A stretch of DNA of 64,000 bases, from NCBI GenBank assembly GCA_963758525.1, contig CAVWVQ010000003.1, positions 416,001 through 480,000 on the forward strand, in the 5' to 3' direction. How positions within the stretch are numbered: position 1 is the stretch's first letter; each line of letters starts with the position of its first letter. This stretch comes from an uncultured Phycisphaerales bacterium. Its GTDB lineage: Bacteria; Planctomycetota; Phycisphaerae; Tepidisphaerales; Tepidisphaeraceae. The translations under genes and the position numbers were made by a program. Shown here in pieces: positions 3,516 through 15,663 of the stretch. The notes under the pieces were generated by a model, which saw nothing but the letters and a program-made list of their open reading frames with translations, was not told the origin of the DNA and ran no database searches.

Positions 3516-4502
3516 ATGTCACTCACCGCCATCATTCTCGCCGCCGGCAAAAGCACGCGGATGAAGTCGAAACGGCCCAAGGTGCTGCACGAGGTGTGCG
3601 GCAAGCCGATGCTCGAGTTCGTCCTCGAAGCCTGTTACAGCGCCGGATGCGAGCGGGTATTGGTGGTCATCGGACATGCGAGGGAAGAGGTGATGGCGAC
3701 GTTTTCGCACGATCGCCGCATCACCTGGGTGGAGCAGACCGAGCAGCACGGGACCGGACACGCCGCGCGCATGTGCGAGAAACATCTCAAGGATCACCAT
3801 GGCGACGTGTTTATTCTCGCCGGAGACGGGCCGTTGATTCGCGGGGAAGTGCTTCGCACGCTGCTGCGGGCGCATCGCGACGAGCGGGCCGCCGCGAGCA
3901 TGGCCACGGCGATTCTCGACGATCCGACGGGCTATGGGCGGATCATCCGCGACTCGGCGGGGCAATTCGTCGAGATCATCGAGCAGATCGACGCGACGCC
4001 CGAGCAACGCGAGATTCGCGAGGTCTTTCCCAGCTACTACTGCGTCAAGGCGTCAGAACTCCTCTTTGCCCTCTCGCAATTGAAAAACAACAACAAGAAG
4101 GGCGAGTATTATCTGACCGACATTTACGCCATCCTGCGGATGGCGGGTCATAAAGTGGTTGCCGTGCAGGCGGTCACCGCGGAAGACACGCTGGCGGTCA
4201 ACACGCGCGAGCAGCAGGCGCAGGTCGACGCGGTGATGCAGGACCGTATTCAACGGCATCTGCGCGATTCGGGCGTGAGCGTCGTCAGCGGCATCAGTAC
4301 CTATATCGAGGCGGGCGTGAAGATCGGGCCGGACAGCGTGATTCATCCGTTCACGTTCATCGGGCGCGACGCCCAGATCGGATCCGATTGCGTGATCGGA
4401 CCATTTGCATCGGTGCAGAGGAAGGGAATTGTTCCGGAGGGAAGCGTGCTGGCGGGGAATATCTCCGCCGGGACCACGACACTGGACCTTTCCAGAGGCT
4501 GA
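3516..4502 (+). CDS. glmU: GlmU-like N-acetylglucosamine-1-phosphate uridyltransferase, short form (328 aa)
   Basis: ILAAGKSTRMKS, PKVLH, QHGTGHA, GDGP, GYGRI, EYYLTD, then only a few hexapeptide repeats; sits in the tRNA-Gln-glmU-prs context. Confidence 0.88.
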   Translation: MSLTAIILAAGKSTRMKSKRPKVLHEVCGKPMLEFVLEACYSAGCERVLVVIGHAREEVMATFSHDRRITWVEQTEQHGTGHAARMCEKHLKDHHGDVFILAGDGPLIRGEVLRTLLRAHRDERAAASMATAILDDPTGYGRIIRDSAGQFVEIIEQIDATPEQREIREVFPSYYCVKASELLFALSQLKNNNKKGEYYLTDIYAILRMAGHKVVAVQAVTAEDTLAVNTREQQAQVDAVMQDRIQRHLRDSGVSVVSGISTYIEAGVKIGPDSVIHPFTFIGRDAQIGSDCVIGPFASVQRKGIVPEGSVLAGNISAGTTTLDLSRG

Positions 4503-4504
4503 GC

Positions 4505-5493
4505 ATGGACAAAATAGACCCACAACGCCTCAAGCTCTTCACCGGCCGCGCCAATCCGCAGCTTGCGCAGAAAATCTGCGATTCGCTGAAGATCCCCCTC
4601 GGCCGGGGGCGCACAGACCTGTTTCCGGACGGCGAGCTGATCGTCAAGGTGGAGGAGGACGTGCGCGGCCGCGATTGCTACGTCGTGCAGCCGACATGTC
4701 AGCCGGTCAATGCGCATCTGATGGAGCTGATGATCTGGATTGACTGCCTGAAGCGCGCAGCGCCAAGGCGGTGACAGCGGTGATCCCCTACTTCGGCTAC
4801 GCCCGCCAGGATCGCAAAGACGAGGGTCGCACGCCGATCACTGCCAAGCTGGTCGCGAATCTGCTGGAGCGCGCCGGGGCCGATCGCGTGGTCTCGGTCG
4901 ATCTGCACGCGGCGCAGGTGCAGGGCTTCTTCGACATCCCCGTCGATCACCTTCATGCCGATCCGGTCATCATCAAGTGGATCAAGTCGCTGAAAATGGC
5001 CAATCGCGTTTTTGCCTCACCGGACGTGGGCAACGTGAAGCGGGCGCAGGTTTACGCCAACCGACTGGGCGGCGACATCTGCATCATCGACAAGCGGCGC
5101 AAGAGCGGCTCGGAAACCAGGGCGGCCCACATCATCGGCGACGTGAAGGACAAGAACATTCTGATGGTCGACGACATGATCACCACGGCCGGCACGGTGA
5201 CCGAAGCCTGCCGGATTCTCCGCGATCATGGAGCGAAGGACATTTACATCGTCGCGTCGCATGCGGTTTTCGCGCCGCCAGCCATGGAACGCCTGGCTAA
5301 GTGCGATTTCACCAAGCTCGCCGTGACCGACACGATTCCCATCGGCAACCGGGCCGACGCGATCAAGGACAAACTCGTGGTGCTGAGCGTCGCCGATCTT
5401 CTCGGCGAAGCCATCACGCGAATTCATCACAATCAGTCAGTCAGTGCCCTGTTCAACGACAGCGGCAAGGAGAAGGAAGAGGAACAGAAATAG
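4505..5493 (+). CDS. prs: Ribose-phosphate pyrophosphokinase; frameshift near 4762
   Basis: FPDGE and VRGRD in the first frame; PYFGYARQDRK, DLHAAQVQGFF and VDDMITTAGT in the second. Confidence 0.95.
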
Positions 5494-10793: not shown

Positions 10794-11090
10794 TCAGTCC
10801 TTGTCCAATTGCGACCGATGTTCGCGCGCTGCGTGGAGAATACGCAGTACGACGACCGTTTGATTCTCGATTCTGAAAAAAACCTTGTAGGGAAATCTTT
10901 CGGTCAGTGCTCTCCGAAGCTCCCGGTAGTACAATGCAAATTGTTCGGGATCTTCTTCCAGGCGTGTGAACAAATCCGCGATTGAAGCCAGAAACTCGTC
11001 ACCCAATCCAAGGCGACGGCCCTCGTACCAGGTGCGTGCCTCAGCAAGATCAGCCTTGGCGACAGGGCGAATGTAAACGGGCCATTTCAC
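10794..11090 (-). CDS. RelE/ParE family toxin
   Basis: IRPVAKADLAEARTWYE..LGDEF, RRALTERFPYKVFF, RILHAAR; GTGA overlap with the upstream antitoxin. Confidence 0.88.
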   Translation of the reverse strand: MKWPVYIRPVAKADLAEARTWYEGRRLGLGDEFLASIADLFTRLEEDPEQFALYYRELRRALTERFPYKVFFRIENQTVVVLRILHAAREHRSQLDKD

Positions 11091-11320
11091 GCCGCACTCG
11101 AGCCGCGCACCCCGCGCAACACGTCGCGCCACGGCGTCCCGGGGTTTCCATCCCGCTCGAACTCAGCGAGTGCCTCGTCGAGCAGTTTTTTCTCTTCTGA
11201 AGAAGGGCCAACGCCCTCCAGCAGATCCTTTTCCTGCAGCTCGCACAGCCGCTGGAACACCTGCTCCCGCTCGTCAGGCTCAAGGGTGGACAGCCCAGCT
11301 AGAATCTCAGCTTTGCTCAT
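11087..11320 (-). CDS. Addiction-module antitoxin
   Basis: 77 aa acidic protein ending LDEALAEF..PGTPWRDV, coupled to the ParE toxin; similar to 63829-64000. Confidence 0.8.
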   Translation of the reverse strand: MSKAEILAGLSTLEPDEREQVFQRLCELQEKDLLEGVGPSSEEKKLLDEALAEFERDGNPGTPWRDVLRGVRGSSAA

Positions 11321-11469
11321 GTCATTATTCTACCTGTCGGAAGGCCACAAGGAAAAGCCTTCTTGGACACTGTTGCCCCTGCAAAAGCCCACAGATTCTT
11401 TGAGCGCATTGACGGAAATAGCTCCTTCTGCCATGCTGCGCCCGATCTTCGGAGGAGCGTTCGCGCGCA

Positions 11470-12319
11470 ATGAAAATTCGCAAAGCCGTCATTACCGCAG
11501 CGGGTCGATCGCAACGGGGATTGCCGCTGCAGACGCTCGTGGATCGGGACGGAGTGCAGAAATCGGCCCTGCGAATTATTCTGCAGGAAGCGATCAGCAG
11601 CGGGGTTGAGCAGGTTTGTGCCGTCATCACCCCCGGCGATCAGAAGCTGTATGCGGAAGCGGCCGGAGAACTGGCGGGGAGATTGCAGTTTGTCGAGCAG
11701 AAGGATGCCCTGGGCTACGGCCATGCCCTCCACTGCGCCAAAGGCTTCGTTGCCAATGATCCGTTCCTGCACCTGGTCAGCGATCACTTGTATTTGAGCC
11801 GGTCGGGCAACCGCTGTGCACAGCAGTTGGTGGCGATGGCCGAGCTGCACAATTGCTCGGTGTCGGCCGTGCAGGCAACGCGGGAAAACATGCTGACGTA
11901 TTATGGAACGATCGGCGGACGGCGTGTTGCGGGGCAAAACAATCTCTACGAAGTGGAGCAGGTTGCCGAAAAACCGACGCCGACGGAAGCCGAGCAGACA
12001 CTTCTGGTTCCCGGGCTGCGCCGGACATTACCTCTGCTTCTTCGGCATGCACGTACTGACGCCAGCGGTGATGGATCTGCTTGGCGGCTTGCTCGGCAAG
12101 CTCAAATCCGGCGAGCGGCTCGCGCTCTCCCCGGCCCTCGCGGAACTGGCCCGCAAAGAACGCTATCTCGCCCTGGAAGTGCAGGGCCTGCGATACAACA
12201 TCGGCGTGCGCTACGGCCTGCTGACCGGCCAACTGGCGCTGGCGCTGGACGGGAACGACCGCGAGGAAATTCTCGCCCAACTTGTCGAACTGCTGGCAAC
12301 GCGGGAGAAGTCTGCCTGA
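11470..12319 (+). CDS. GalU-like sugar-phosphate nucleotidyltransferase with a degenerate signature; frameshift near 12018
   Basis: [35 protein letters not shown]; continues in frame 11903..12319 as [19 protein letters not shown]. Confidence 0.8.
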
Positions 12320-12327
12320 CCAACGCC

Positions 12328-15300
12328 ATGACCTCCGAGCTGATCCGGATCATCACGTCTGACGACCCGCAGGTGCGCGACCAGTCGCTCGACGCGATTT
12401 GCCGGGACGAGTCTGTCGAGCAACTCCTGGCCGAGTGCGAGCAGCTCGATGCGTTTCGCCGCGATCACGACAATCTCTACCAGCGCGTTCGCGCCCTCTT
12501 TTTCCTCTACGCCATTCACCGGTTCCACCTGCCGACGCGATCGAGTCTGTCGGTCCACGGTCATGTGCCGTTCAATGGGTACGAACATCTTCTCTCCCGT
12601 CGTTTTGAAGAAGCGATCGATTCGTTCCTCGATGTGCAGAAGAACAAGGGACCCAGTGACCCAATCTCCAGCGCCCTGGCGGCCGCGTACCGCGACCTGG
12701 CATTTCAGACCCTTGCCAACCAGGTGCGGCGGAGCGTCCGCTCGGTGAAAGGCAATCAATGGATGTTCCGCATCGGCCATCCCGCGGACCAGCCCTTGCG
12801 AATCCGGCCCGAGCTGCTCGAGCGTTCGCCGACGGATGGCTCGTTTCCGATTCTCGCGGAGAAGACTCCGGTGCGAATGGATCTCACGCATAGCGCGTGG
12901 AGCGACATCTTTTTTCTGGGAATGGATTTTCCCGAAGGCGCGCGGGTGCTGAACGTGTCGATCGACCTGGCCGTTCATGGGCGCGATCCAGCGCCCAAGC
13001 CGCCGGTCGAGGCATATCTGCGGGTGATCGACGAGCCGGTGTTGCGTGTCGTCAGCGTCGATCTGGCGACGCGCGCAGATATTACCAGCCTGCCGGAAGT
13101 CTTTGACTTTGCGAAGGATTATCTGGGGCTGCTCAAGGCGGCGGTGATCGCGTCGGGAATTATTCCGCCGGGGATCGAAGGCTCCGGCCGAACGCTTGCC
13201 GAGCTGCTGGAGCGAGTCGTCGGTCCGGGACTTGGGCTGGAGATCGTCAGCAACGTCAACAATATTCCAAAAGGTTCGCGGCTCGCAGTCTCCACCAATT
13301 TGCTGGGCGCGCTGATCTCCGTCTGCATGCGCGCGACCAGCCAGGCGACTTCGCTCACCGGAGAGCTGCACGAAAACGAGCGACGCCTGGTTGCGGCGCG
13401 CGCCATTCTCGGTGAGTGGATCGGTGGTTCGGGCGGCGGGTGGCAGGATTCGGGCGGCGTCTGGCCCGGAATGAAACTCATCACCGGCACGCCCGCGCGC
13501 GAGGGCGATCCGGAGTTTGGCATCAGCCGCGGCCGCCTGCTTCCCACGCACAAGATTCTCGGGTCCGCGGAGGCGCCGCCCTCCGTTCGTGAACATCTGC
13601 AACAGAGCCTCGTGCTCGTTCATGGCGGCATGGCGCAGAACGTCGGCCCGATTCTTGAGATGGTCACGGAAAAATATCTTCTCCGCTCCGAAGCCGAGTG
13701 GAGCGCCCGCTGGCAGGCGATGGGCATTCTCGACGAAATCCTCGACGCGCTGCGCCGCGATGATGTTGCCGGCGTCGGCGCCGCGACAACCCGCAATTTC
13801 TTCGGCCCGCTGCAGGCCATTATTCCCTGGGCCAGCACGCACTACACGGAAACGATCATCGCCCGCGTCAAAGAGCGATTCGGCTCCGACTTCTGGGGCT
13901 TCTGGATGCTCGGCGGAATGTCCGGCGGGGGAATGGGATTCATCTTTGCGCCAAAACAGAAAGCCGCCGCACAGGAGTTTCTCCAGCAGACAATGTCGAG
14001 CATCAAGAAGGAACTGGAGAACGCCCTGCCGTTCGCGATGGAACCGGTCGTCTACGATTTTGCGATCAATCCGCACGGCACCTATGCGCAGCTTCTGGCC
14101 AGCGACAAGGCGCTGCTGCCGCCCGGTTATTACGCGTTCATGGCGCCGCAATGGCTGCGGACTGACCCGCGCCAATTGTCGCCGCTGCGCCGCGCGGAAC
14201 TGGATCGCTTTGGCTCCGCCTGCCGAACCGATCCATCGCTTCGGGGGATGGTTGAAACGCTGTTCGACAGGCTCCTGCCGCGCGGAAAATCCGAAGGCGG
14301 CCCGGCCCGTTCGGTTTGGGAACTGCTCGATCAGTATGGATTTGATCGTCAGCTTCACGAGCAGATTCGCGCCGATCTGACCGCGGGCCGAACCGGCCTG
14401 GCGCAGAATCGCCTGCCGCGGACCACGACCATCGAAGACGTCAAACCGGACGATGTTGCGGATCTGACCGGGACGGCGTCAGGCGATTCGCGCGCAATGG
14501 ATCGAGCTTGGCCGCAAGGCATTACGAAACGGGGAAGTCGGAGTCATGTCGCTCGCCGCCGGTGCAGGCAGCCGATGGACGCAGGGCGCCGGGGTCGTCA
14601 AGGCGCTGCATCCGTTCTGCAAGCTCGCGGGGAAGCATCGCACGTTTATTGAAACGCATCTGGCCAAGAGCCGGCGCGTCGGACGAGAGCACGGCGCGAT
14701 GTTGCCGCACGTCATCGCGACCAGTTACCTGACGCACGAGCCGATCGCGTCGTTTCTGGCCGCGCGGGACAACTACGGCTACGCCGGTCCGCTGTATCTT
14801 TCGCCGGGGCGTTCGGTGGGCCTGCGCATGGTGCCGACGGTGCGCGATCTGCGATTCGCGTGGGAAGAGATGCCGCAGAAGCTTCTCGATCAGCAGGCCC
14901 AGAAGATGCGCGAAAGCCTTCATGCTGCGCTGATTGGCTGGGCAGAGCGCGCCGGACAGGCGAGCGATTACACCGACAATGTCCCCTCCCAGTGCCTTCA
15001 TCCCGTCGGCCATTGGTTTGAAACGCCCAATCTCCTGCGCAACGGCGTCCTCCTGCGCATGTTGCAGAACCGCCCGCAGCTTCGCTATCTGATGCTGCAC
15101 AATATCGACACCGTGGGAGCGGATGTTGATCCCGCCGTTCTCGGCCTGCATATCGCGCGCGGGTCGTGCCTCACCTTCGAAGTGATCACGCGCCGCATCG
15201 ACGATCGCGGCGGCGGACTGGCGCGCGTGAACGATCGCGTTCGGCTCGTCGAGGGATTGGCGATGCCGCGCGAGGAAGACGAGTTTCATCTTTCCTACTA

Positions 15301-15663
15301 CAACACGCTGACGACCTGGATCGAGATCGATCGGCTGCTGCAGGTCTTCGGCCTGTCGTGCGCCGAACTGGCGGATGCCGAAAAAGTCGCCGCCGCCGTC
15401 CGCGCGGTCGCGCGCGAATGCCGACTTACATCACCCTCAAAGACGTCAAGAAGCGCTGGGGCCATGGCCAGGAAGACATCTTTCCGGTCGCGCAGTTTGA
15501 GAAGCTCTGGGGCGACATGAGCGCGCTCGCTGAAGTCGCATGCGGGTATGCCGTGGTACCCCGCGCCCGCGGCCAGCAACTGAAAGATCAGGCCCAACTC
15601 GACGGCTGGCTCCGCGACGGGTCGGCCGCGTACGTCGAATCAATCTGCGAATTCGGCTCTTGA
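12328..15663 (+). CDS. Fusion of a GHMP-family sugar kinase and a UDPGP-family pyrophosphorylase (~1110 aa); frameshifts near 14485 and 15415
   Basis: Kinase-like motifs [33 protein letters not shown]; pyrophosphorylase-like motifs [31 protein letters not shown]. Confidence 0.8.

What the first reader, a model, noticed from the sequence alone, without database searches (positions are those of the whole stretch)
12328..15663. GHMP sugar kinase fused to a UDPGP-type pyrophosphorylase: candidate one-protein sugar salvage pathway
Seen: after bridging two frame breaks, one ~1110 aa protein carries [29 protein letters not shown] and LGGMSGGG, then [24 protein letters not shown] and YNT. Known: the first set parallels fucokinase-type GHMP motifs (PxRxD..GGWxD, PxGSGLGxS, GGGWQDQ, GAGGGG). 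The second parallels eukaryote-type UDP-glucose/UDP-sugar/UDP-GlcNAc pyrophosphorylases. The bifunctional enzyme FKP has the opposite domain order and makes GDP-fucose. Inference: this enzyme takes a free monosaccharide to sugar-1-P and on to a UDP-sugar. The altered sugar-binding and P-loop residues suggest a different substrate, and a plain 'UTP-glucose-1-P uridylyltransferase' label would miss the kinase half.
Basis: partly seen in the sequence, partly recalled or inferred. Interest (0 to 1): 0.72.

Follow-up and report, generated by a model that had tools for sequence, protein, structure and literature searches.

The report
Sugar kinase fused to nucleotide-sugar pyrophosphorylase
This gene encodes a large enzyme, conserved across many bacterial phyla, that joins a fucokinase-like sugar kinase to a eukaryote-type nucleotide-sugar-forming domain; it likely activates a still-unidentified free sugar in one chain, and it usually sits behind a dedicated, probably non-catalytic GalU-like partner gene.

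Summary
Observation confirmed. 12328-15663 is one gene with two small frame breaks, probably assembly errors: relatives up to 93% identical are single 1,112-aa proteins, and the essential prs gene nearby is broken likewise. The N-half has a GHMP fold closest to FKP fucokinase and HddA, with FKP's catalytic residues kept. The C-half is a PF01704 pyrophosphorylase with its active-site residues kept. The family spans at least eight bacterial phyla and one protist; ten literature searches found no description. Sugar-site residues point to an alpha-D-gluco-type, non-acetamido sugar rather than L-fucose. The uracil-contacting glutamine appears to be missing, so 'UDP' is not established. Substrate, activity and partner binding are untested. 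Verdict: new variant of a known kind (FKP-like salvage logic, different parts and order). This scan reported the same two-gene family before, in at least seven other genomes.

The parts
11470..12319 (+). Upstream partner gene: GalU-fold protein of about 283 aa with a degenerate nucleotide-binding loop; one frame break near 12017-12024; its stop lies 8 nt before the fusion's ATG
   Evidence: (TIGR01099 E 5e-21)
12328..12840 (+). N-terminal all-helical domain (aa 1-~171); aligns structurally with the linker region of FKP
   Evidence: model; 9iit_A row (model 1-590 to FKP 485-949, 449 aligned, against 353 for the kinase part alone); this domain was not folded alone
12841..14103 (+). GHMP sugar-kinase domain (aa ~172-592) with R183, W191, D193, P-loop [11 protein letters not shown]363, Q373, D374
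14104..14292 (+). Three-helix connector (aa ~593-655), missing in many distant members
14293..15663 (+). PF01704 (UGP/UAP-type) pyrophosphorylase domain (aa ~656-1112) with R750, K759, H896, N926, D928, E976, Y992, N993, K1087; no C-terminal beta-helix; holds both frame breaks
14489..14497 (+). Frame break 1 (frame 1 to 2) in a GC dinucleotide run; likely assembly error
15408..15417 (+). Frame break 2 (frame 2 to 1) in a GC-rich run; likely assembly error

Best explanation
The gene encodes a 1,112-residue two-domain enzyme that likely phosphorylates a free monosaccharide at C1 with ATP and then likely joins the sugar-1-phosphate to a nucleoside triphosphate (probably, but not surely, UTP) to give a nucleotide sugar, with the upstream GalU-like protein predicted to be a non-catalytic accessory subunit. 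Step 1 (inferred from FKP): D374 is the general base, R183 and the P-loop with S322 hold Mg-ATP, and W191/D193/Q373/D374 hold the sugar. Step 2 (inferred from UGP/UAP): R750/K759/K1087 bind phosphates, and H896, N926/D928, E976 and Y992/N993 hold the sugar-1-phosphate. The sugar is most likely alpha-D-gluco-configured and not N-acetylated (glucose, xylose, glucuronate, quinovose or a C6-modified relative). The grounds: H896 and Y992 match the UGPase His192 and Phe292 that are proposed to exclude GlcNAc and galactose, and a Gly replaces the Phe that sits by C6. The partner keeps the residues that bind nucleotide-sugar or sugar-1-phosphate (Q77, D105, E167-K168) but has lost the triphosphate loop, so it would sense or hold product, as GalF and GMPPA are proposed to do. 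Shown: the fusion, both folds (predicted model), residue conservation, partner linkage. Inferred: both activities, their coupling, the sugar, the nucleotide, the partner's role.
For: Folds: AF2 model pLDDT 84, pTM 0.85. VIA-align: FKP kinase 9iip Z 31.5, rmsd 2.6, 353 aligned; yeast UGP 2i5k Z 30.2, rmsd 3.6, 347 aligned. Kinase residues: FKP R592, W599, D601, S719, E751, Q761, D762 (passages of PMC11982464) align to R183, W191, D193, S322, E363, Q373, D374. All seven are invariant in 44 of 44 rows of A1; R183, D193, S322, Q373 and D374 also in 19 of 19 rows reaching down to 28% identity. Pyrophosphorylase residues R750, K759, H896, N926, D928, E976, Y992, N993, K1087: 114 of 114 full-length close homologues. 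The distant full-length homologues examined keep both domains in this order. H896 and Y992 align to Arabidopsis UGPase His192 and Phe292 (roles in PMC5609113 sections 16 and 20). Plant USPase does not use beta-L-Fuc-1-P (PMC5609113 abstract passage). Partner: directly upstream in 62 of 65 loci with room; present in exactly the 9 of 41 relatives that have the fusion; in 11 of 301 phylum genomes, all among the 16 with the fusion. Its GxG(T/S)R reads GxxQR, with an 8-residue and a 24-residue deletion against an intact paralogue of the same genome; changing two residues of this motif in GalU cut activity about 500-fold (PMC4643126 passages).
Against: No activity data exist for any member. The P-loop is atypical (FKP G715 and G717 read R318 and A320), and its pLDDT is under 50 at 316-319. 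The kinase keeps FKP's fucose-binding residues, which fits an L-fucose-type sugar better than my gluco reading. HddA-type WcbL ties with FKP structurally (Z 30.6 against 31.5). The uracil-contacting Gln (Arabidopsis Gln162) has no counterpart at its candidate positions in most members: 833 is Leu in 112 of 114 and Gln in 2, 828 is Gly in 114 of 114; the placement comes from a profile alignment and is unsure. W191 and R318 are not kept in the deepest branch. Neighbours beyond the partner are not conserved and give no substrate clue. The window's genome already has GalK-like, glucuronokinase-like and HddA-like kinases, an intact GalU-like protein and a UAP-like protein (labels from recalled motifs), so a further route is not obviously needed. 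Five of 16 phylum genomes with the fusion have no partner match. One divergent member (L115) is split by an in-frame stop between the domains. The partner keeps the motif's Arg in 23 of 30 rows, so residual activity is possible.
Confidence: 0.58

Rival explanations
1. The kinase acts like HddA on a sugar that is already phosphorylated or otherwise anionic (a sugar-6/7-phosphate, heptose phosphate or sulfosugar), so the enzyme serves a biosynthetic route and is not a free-sugar salvage enzyme.
For: WcbL/HddA Z 30.6 and 3k85 Z 28.2, close to FKP's 31.5. Extra invariant basic residues near the kinase site (H188, K315, R318; 114 of 114). Gly1083 stands four residues before K1087, where UAP-like proteins have Phe, leaving room at C6.
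Against: By sequence, only FKP is hit in the PDB. The family HMM scores FKP-like proteins at E 6e-17 to 9e-35 and the genome's HddA-like kinase at 1e-5. No phosphatase, isomerase or polysaccharide locus is conserved nearby. R318 is Gly in the deepest branch.
Confidence: 0.13
2. The kinase is a true L-fucose/D-arabinose-type kinase. Its beta-L product is activated by a remodelled C-terminal domain or by the GalU-like partner, possibly with a nucleotide other than UTP.
For: FKP sugar contacts W599, D601, Q761 and D762 are all kept. The N-terminal helices align to FKP's linker, and the partner gene sits where FKP's transferase domain does. The uracil Gln seems lost. G000 has no FKP match.
Against: Plant USPase rejects beta-L-Fuc-1-P, and the C-half keeps UGPase-type sugar residues. 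The kinases form their own long branch outside the FKPs (SH-aLRT 100, quick tree of 38 rows). FKP-like genes and the fusion co-occur in G012 and G290. The partner's catalytic loop is degenerate.
Confidence: 0.14
3. Only the C-terminal domain is catalytic (a UDP-glucose-type pyrophosphorylase, as annotated). The kinase-like half with its odd P-loop is a ligand-binding regulatory module.
For: P-loop glycines replaced (R318, A320), database annotation, and low model confidence at the loop.
Against: Every catalytic residue of FKP kinase is invariant, and more distant members show an intermediate loop PxxSGLAVST, which looks like remodelling under selection. Most genomes of the family hold an intact GalU-like paralogue.
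Confidence: 0.12
4. The window's gene is really broken (pseudogene), or the halves are two genes.
For: Two frame breaks in the window; no reads could be laid to polish them.
Against: 92-95% identity to intact relatives across the pieces. The partner and the essential prs gene in the window show the same kind of break. 67 of 69 full-length loci are one frame.
Confidence: 0.03

Closest known systems
FKP, bifunctional L-fucokinase/GDP-fucose pyrophosphorylase (Bacteroides fragilis; PDB 5yys, 9iip, 9iit; NCBIfam NF009948)
   Same: Kinase plus pyrophosphorylase in one chain; GHMP kinase with the same catalytic residues; helical linker region aligns.
   Different: Opposite domain order; transferase is PF01704, not the PF07959 GFPP domain; 65.7 bits against a cut-off of 721; altered P-loop; kinase on a separate long branch.
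Zebrafish glucuronokinase/putative UDP-GlcA pyrophosphorylase DrGKUP (PMC3938481; abstract and section 21 read)
   Same: GHMP kinase fused to a nucleotidyltransferase for free sugar to UDP-sugar salvage.
   Different: There a 260-aa bacterial-type transferase is N-terminal and the protein is 619 aa; here the kinase is N-terminal and the transferase is of the eukaryote type.
Eukaryote-type UGPase / UAP / USPase (PF01704)
   Same: Fold (Z 26-30) and active-site His, Asn-x-Asp, Gly-Gly, Glu, Asn, Lys.
   Different: Stand-alone enzymes; this one is fused to a kinase, lacks the C-terminal beta-helix of UGPase, and seems to lack the uracil Gln and the Phe near C6; 14-22% identity in the structural alignments.
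HddA/WcbL heptose-7-phosphate 1-kinases with HddC transferases
   Same: Kinase fold ties with FKP (Z 30.6); kinase beside a transferase gene.
   Different: No sequence hit in the PDB searches; not in a heptose or capsule locus; G000 has a separate HddA-like/transferase pair.
GalF (E. coli, Klebsiella) and GMPPA: non-catalytic pyrophosphorylase paralogues
   Same: GalU fold with a disrupted GxG(T/S)R loop, proposed regulatory role (PMC4643126 and PMC11796359 passages; GMPPA from the search listing only).
   Different: The partner has deletions, not point changes, and is tied to an unrelated-type pyrophosphorylase/kinase fusion instead of to its own catalytic paralogue; binding untested.

Membership tests
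GHMP kinase superfamily (sugar-1-kinases) | GHMP two-domain fold | tested here: met
   Model of P0004: Z 31.5 to 9iip, 30.6 to 4usm, 26 to mevalonate kinases
GHMP kinase superfamily (sugar-1-kinases) | Catalytic Arg and Asp base, Mg-binding Ser | tested here: met
   R183, D374, S322 align to FKP R592, D762, S719; invariant in 44 of 44 and 19 of 19 rows
GHMP kinase superfamily (sugar-1-kinases) | Canonical PxxxGLGSS P-loop | tested here: inconclusive
   Reads PKGSRLAVS in 114 of 114 close homologues and PxxSGLA[VI]ST in the deepest branch; the window piece has no Pfam GHMP hit, two distant members do
GHMP kinase superfamily (sugar-1-kinases) | ATP-dependent phosphorylation of a sugar | not testable with these tools
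   needs an assay
FKP (NF009948) | N-terminal GFPP (PF07959) domain before a C-terminal fucokinase | tested here: not met
   No PF07959 hit; kinase first, PF01704 last
FKP (NF009948) | Score over the family cut-off | tested here: not met
   65.7 bits against 721 for the N-half
FKP (NF009948) | Fucose-binding W/D/T/Q/D residues | tested here: inconclusive
   Four of five kept (T602 reads I194); W191 lost in the deepest branch
PF01704 pyrophosphorylases (UGP/UAP/USP) | Profile over the gathering cut-off, and fold | tested here: met
   37.8 bits against 22; Z 30.2 to 2i5k
PF01704 pyrophosphorylases (UGP/UAP/USP) | Phosphate- and sugar-binding residues (Arg/Lys loop, His, NxD, GG, Glu, Asn, final Lys) | tested here: met
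   114 of 114 close homologues; alignments; roles of the Lys and Arg residues recalled
PF01704 pyrophosphorylases (UGP/UAP/USP) | Uridine-contacting Gln (Arabidopsis Gln162) | tested here: inconclusive
   Profile alignment puts it at 833: Leu in 112, Gln in 2 of 114; Gln or His in 10 of 19 rows of the distant set; placement unsure
PF01704 pyrophosphorylases (UGP/UAP/USP) | UTP plus sugar-1-phosphate gives UDP-sugar | not testable with these tools
   needs an assay
GalU (TIGR01099), for the partner | GalU fold | tested here: met
   Model pLDDT 92; Foldseek YngB E 5e-25, TM 0.76
GalU (TIGR01099), for the partner | GxG(T/S)R loop followed by the PKE-type lysine segment | tested here: not met
   GxxQR with Gln or Glu in place of Thr/Ser in 30 of 30 rows; 8-residue deletion removing the QKEM lysine of the intact paralogue; motif role from PMC4643126, role of that lysine recalled
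GalU (TIGR01099), for the partner | Sugar-1-phosphate-binding EK, metal Asp, uracil Gln | tested here: met
   E167, K168, D105, Q77 in 30 of 30 rows; K202 role in PMC4643126, the other roles recalled
HddA/WcbL | Acts on heptose-7-phosphate within a GDP-heptose or capsule locus | tested here: inconclusive
   Fold ties with FKP; no such neighbours among 89 scanned of 271 picked; substrate untested

The most novel reading that the evidence does not exclude
A third, independently built kind of one-chain sugar-activating enzyme. Its kinase is a sugar-1-kinase for a sugar that has none known in nature (for example glucose or xylose; 'none known' is recalled, not searched), its eukaryote-type domain uses a relaxed or non-uridine nucleotide, and a dedicated pseudo-GalU subunit binds the product and controls it. 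Thousands of such proteins from soil, sediment and sludge bacteria are mislabelled as UDP-glucose pyrophosphorylase.
Probability: 0.25. Interest if true: 0.75.

Novelty: new variant of a known kind. Interest (0 to 1): 0.5.

Why it matters
Only two architectures of kinase-pyrophosphorylase fusion turned up in the literature searched (FKP and the zebrafish-type glucuronokinase fusion), both with the transferase first. This is a third, built from different parts, 59-80% identical to P0004 across phyla, with at least 660 matching stretches in species-representative genomes, and labelled by its C-terminal half only. It points to an unrecognised sugar-activation route in polysaccharide-degrading PVC, Chloroflexota and Acidobacteriota bacteria. 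It could be a useful one-protein catalyst for making nucleotide sugars, as FKP is for GDP-fucose. The partner offers a clean test of pseudo-enzyme control of a pyrophosphorylase in bacteria.

Tried and rejected
Reads to polish the breaks: 3 runs listed, best share 0.12, no RNA holder listed; none laid. Substrate from gene neighbours: clustering of 3,379 ORFs from 95 loci found no recurrent real gene beyond the partner in more than about six loci; Pfam on 89 of 271 picked neighbours gave unrelated families; diol-dehydratase small subunits and IlvD-type dehydratases (2 each among those scanned) come from related Chloroflexota and were taken as synteny. Mutual exclusion with FKP: overlap in 1 of 301 genomes (16 with fusion, 8 FKP-like) and 1 of 41 (9 and 6); no signal. 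Idea that the three-helix connector docks the partner: rejected, L122 has the partner without it and L121 has it without the partner. Idea that the partner supplies the missing uracil Gln: no support, all 4 Gln833 loci have the partner, and loci without a partner match (many cut at a contig end) have Leu in 19 of 20. Apparent partner-fusion single proteins P0172 and P0219 are frame-shifted read-throughs, not evidence. The careful kinase tree did not finish; only the quick tree is cited, and it holds long branches. ESM Atlas for aa 1-600 gave only the family's own clusters. No sigma-70 promoter found; terminator count at chance level. One search translated a wrong frame of L174 and is not used. 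The N-terminal domain was not folded alone. Literature: ten searches, of which some aimed at the fusion, found no paper on this family. Subscription journals are mostly outside the library, and no supplements were opened; those of PMC12732313 (UniRef50 COG2605 lists) might include members.
Full report
Observation. The window lies in genome G000, whose close homologues are labelled Tepidisphaeraceae. From 12328 a frame-1 ORF carries [29 protein letters not shown] and LGGMSGGG. Frame 2 carries [24 protein letters not shown] and YNT, and frame 1 resumes for the last 81 residues to the stop at 15663. Intact 1,112-aa relatives map onto these three pieces at 92-95% identity. Both breaks sit in GC dinucleotide runs and together leave the gene 3 nt short. 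The upstream gene and the essential prs gene show the same kind of break, so assembly error is likely; this was not confirmed with reads.

The fusion is real and widespread. All 8,000 scored candidates were homologues; of the 120 listed, 113 are 1,104-1,145 aa with PF01704. The 80 kept come from Verrucomicrobiota, Planctomycetota, Chloroflexota, Acidobacteriota, Armatimonadota, Bacteroidota and others at 59-80% identity (phylum names are my reading of the record titles). Of these, 69 span the whole protein and 67 are one open frame. It is patchy: 9 of 41 relatives and 16 of 301 phylum genomes. The distant full-length members examined, at 28-56% identity and including Omnitrophota, Sumerlaeota and the protist Blattamonas, keep both domains in the same order. 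One divergent member is split by a stop. Source names, where given, are almost all 'UTP--glucose-1-phosphate uridylyltransferase' or 'hypothetical protein'; one of the 120 listed is named a predicted kinase.

Anatomy. The model of P0004 (pLDDT 84, pTM 0.85) has a helical N-terminal domain, a GHMP kinase (about 172-592), three connecting helices and a pyrophosphorylase (about 656-1112). The kinase aligns to FKP kinase (Z 31.5, rmsd 2.6, 353 residues), tied with the HddA-type WcbL (Z 30.6). Full-length FKP aligns over model 1-590 with FKP 485-949, so the N-terminal helices correspond to FKP's linker. The C-half aligns to yeast and plant UGP (Z 30.2, 29.5) and to UAP (Z 29.1). By sequence the only PDB hits are FKP for the N-half and UGP, then UAP, for the C-half.

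Kinase site. Passages of PMC11982464 name FKP R592, W599, D601, T602, the 712-720 loop with S719, E751, Q761 and D762. These align to R183, W191, D193, I194, [10 protein letters not shown] with S322, E363, Q373 and D374. All but I194 match FKP and are invariant in 44 of 44 rows; R183, D193, S322, Q373 and D374 hold in 19 of 19 rows that include the distant members. The odd P-loop is fixed (114 of 114) and reads PxxSGLA[VI]ST in the deepest branch, which suggests remodelling and not decay. In a quick tree of 38 kinase domains the 19 fusion kinases are one side of a long branch (SH-aLRT 100), outside the 14 FKP-like rows, so FKP's substrate cannot simply be transferred.

Pyrophosphorylase site. 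R750, K759, H896, N926, D928, E976, Y992, N993 and K1087 are kept in 114 of 114 close homologues. H896 and Y992 align to Arabidopsis UGPase His192 and Phe292, which PMC5609113 (sections 16 and 20 read) links to excluding GlcNAc and galactose. The same paper reports that USPase does not use beta-L-Fuc-1-P. Gly1083 replaces the Phe found four residues before the final Lys in UAP-like proteins; equating it with Phe356 near C6 is my inference. So an alpha-D-gluco-type, non-acetamido sugar fits this domain best, in tension with the FKP-like kinase pocket. A new caveat: the uridine-contacting Gln common to all three plant enzymes falls, by profile alignment with 28 UAP-like proteins, on position 833, which is Leu in 112 of 114 close homologues; the alternative position 828 is Gly. 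The placement is unsure, but UDP is not a safe assumption.

The partner. A GalU-like gene at 11470-12319 ends 8 nt before the fusion. Its homologue is directly upstream in 62 of 65 loci with at least 1.2 kb of room. It is present in exactly the 9 of 41 relatives that have the fusion, one of them cut at a contig end; the 32 without include G004, an unpublished genome. It is present in 11 of 301 phylum genomes, all among the 16 with the fusion (at most 8 candidates were scored per genome, and kin are not independent). Five of those 16 have no partner match; four of them were checked at a loose threshold. The genomes are 90-92% complete, so the partner looks dedicated but not obligatory. It has a GalU fold (pLDDT 92; YngB E 5e-25) and keeps Q77, D105, E167 and K168 in 30 of 30 rows. 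Its GxG(T/S)R reads GxxQR, and it lacks 8 residues including the QKEM lysine, and a further 24 residues, against an intact paralogue of the same genome. Disrupting this motif cuts GalU activity about 500-fold and marks the near-inactive GalF, for which a regulatory role is proposed (passages of PMC4643126 and PMC11796359). The Arg survives in 23 of 30 rows, so some activity is not excluded. Binding to the fusion is untested.

Context. No other neighbour is conserved, and the pair also stands alone on a Hymenobacter plasmid. G000 has five Pfam GHMP kinases, seven NTP_transferase matches and a UAP-like protein elsewhere, which argues that the fusion is not the housekeeping route to UDP-glucose or UDP-GlcNAc.

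Mechanism and rivals. Best reading (0.58): free sugar plus ATP gives sugar-1-phosphate, which the second domain converts with NTP (probably UTP) to nucleotide sugar, with the partner as a non-catalytic sensor or subunit. Rivals: an L-fucose-type kinase with an unusual transferase step (0.14), an HddA-like kinase on an anionic sugar (0.13), a non-catalytic kinase module on a UGPase (0.12), and a true pseudogene or two genes (0.03).

Known and new. It works like FKP and the zebrafish glucuronokinase fusion (PMC3938481, abstract and section 21) but fails FKP membership on domain content, order and score. The 2025 FKP phylogeny (PMC12732313; first of eight parts and passages read) has no occurrence of 'UDP' or 'uridylyl' in its main text; its supplements were not seen. 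Ten searches found no description of this family. The scan's own notes report the same pair in at least seven other genomes. I had found the partner before consulting them, and they are not counted as evidence. Verdict: a real, uncharacterised, widespread enzyme; new variant of a known kind; interest 0.5.

Noticed in passing
window 4405-5493: The essential prs gene (ribose-phosphate pyrophosphokinase) is split by a frame break near 4760, like the breaks in the finding; this points to indel errors in the assembly.
   Followed up: partly
window 10794-11331 (-): ParE-like toxin gene (PF05016) with a short upstream ORF that looks like its antitoxin, between dnaB and the partner gene; not part of the conserved unit.
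   Followed up: no
P0154 (GenBank KAK2962578.1): The anaerobic protist Blattamonas nauphoetae has a 1,292-aa member annotated as UTP-glucose-1-phosphate uridylyltransferase. It nests among bacterial members in the quick tree, and several pyrophosphorylase residues look altered. P0211 and P0231 may be further eukaryotic fragments (origin not given).
   Followed up: partly
P0144, P0167, P0153, P0138: Deep-branching members include an Omnitrophota protein (P0153) and 2,318- and 2,939-aa proteins where the whole kinase-pyrophosphorylase unit sits among ROK and inositol-monophosphatase domains.
   Followed up: partly
L141:14026-18318 (NZ_CP095065.1): The two-gene pair lies on a Hymenobacter volaticus plasmid among unrelated genes, the only match in 72,556 plasmid records; the fusion there is in four frame pieces.
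   Followed up: partly
P0097: A homologue with an in-frame RAYT-type transposase domain (PF01797) between its halves; matches earlier finding e1-4690381.
   Followed up: no
L115:2152-6405 (-), G116: Divergent member split by one in-frame stop in a long low-complexity linker, with no partner match in that genome.
   Followed up: partly
L111:6585-7541, L112:6070-7287: G000 holds two longer GalU-like paralogues with an intact loop (GRG[ST]RQYP...QKEM); such a paralogue is found in most genomes of the family and is the likely origin of the partner.
   Followed up: partly
L110:6595-7596: A stand-alone glucuronokinase-like GHMP kinase in G000 (label from recalled motifs) with another unusual P-loop, PRLVGLSTNS.
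   Followed up: no
L092:10219-10314: A second copy of the last 32 codons of the fusion lies about 900 bp downstream of the intact gene.
   Followed up: no
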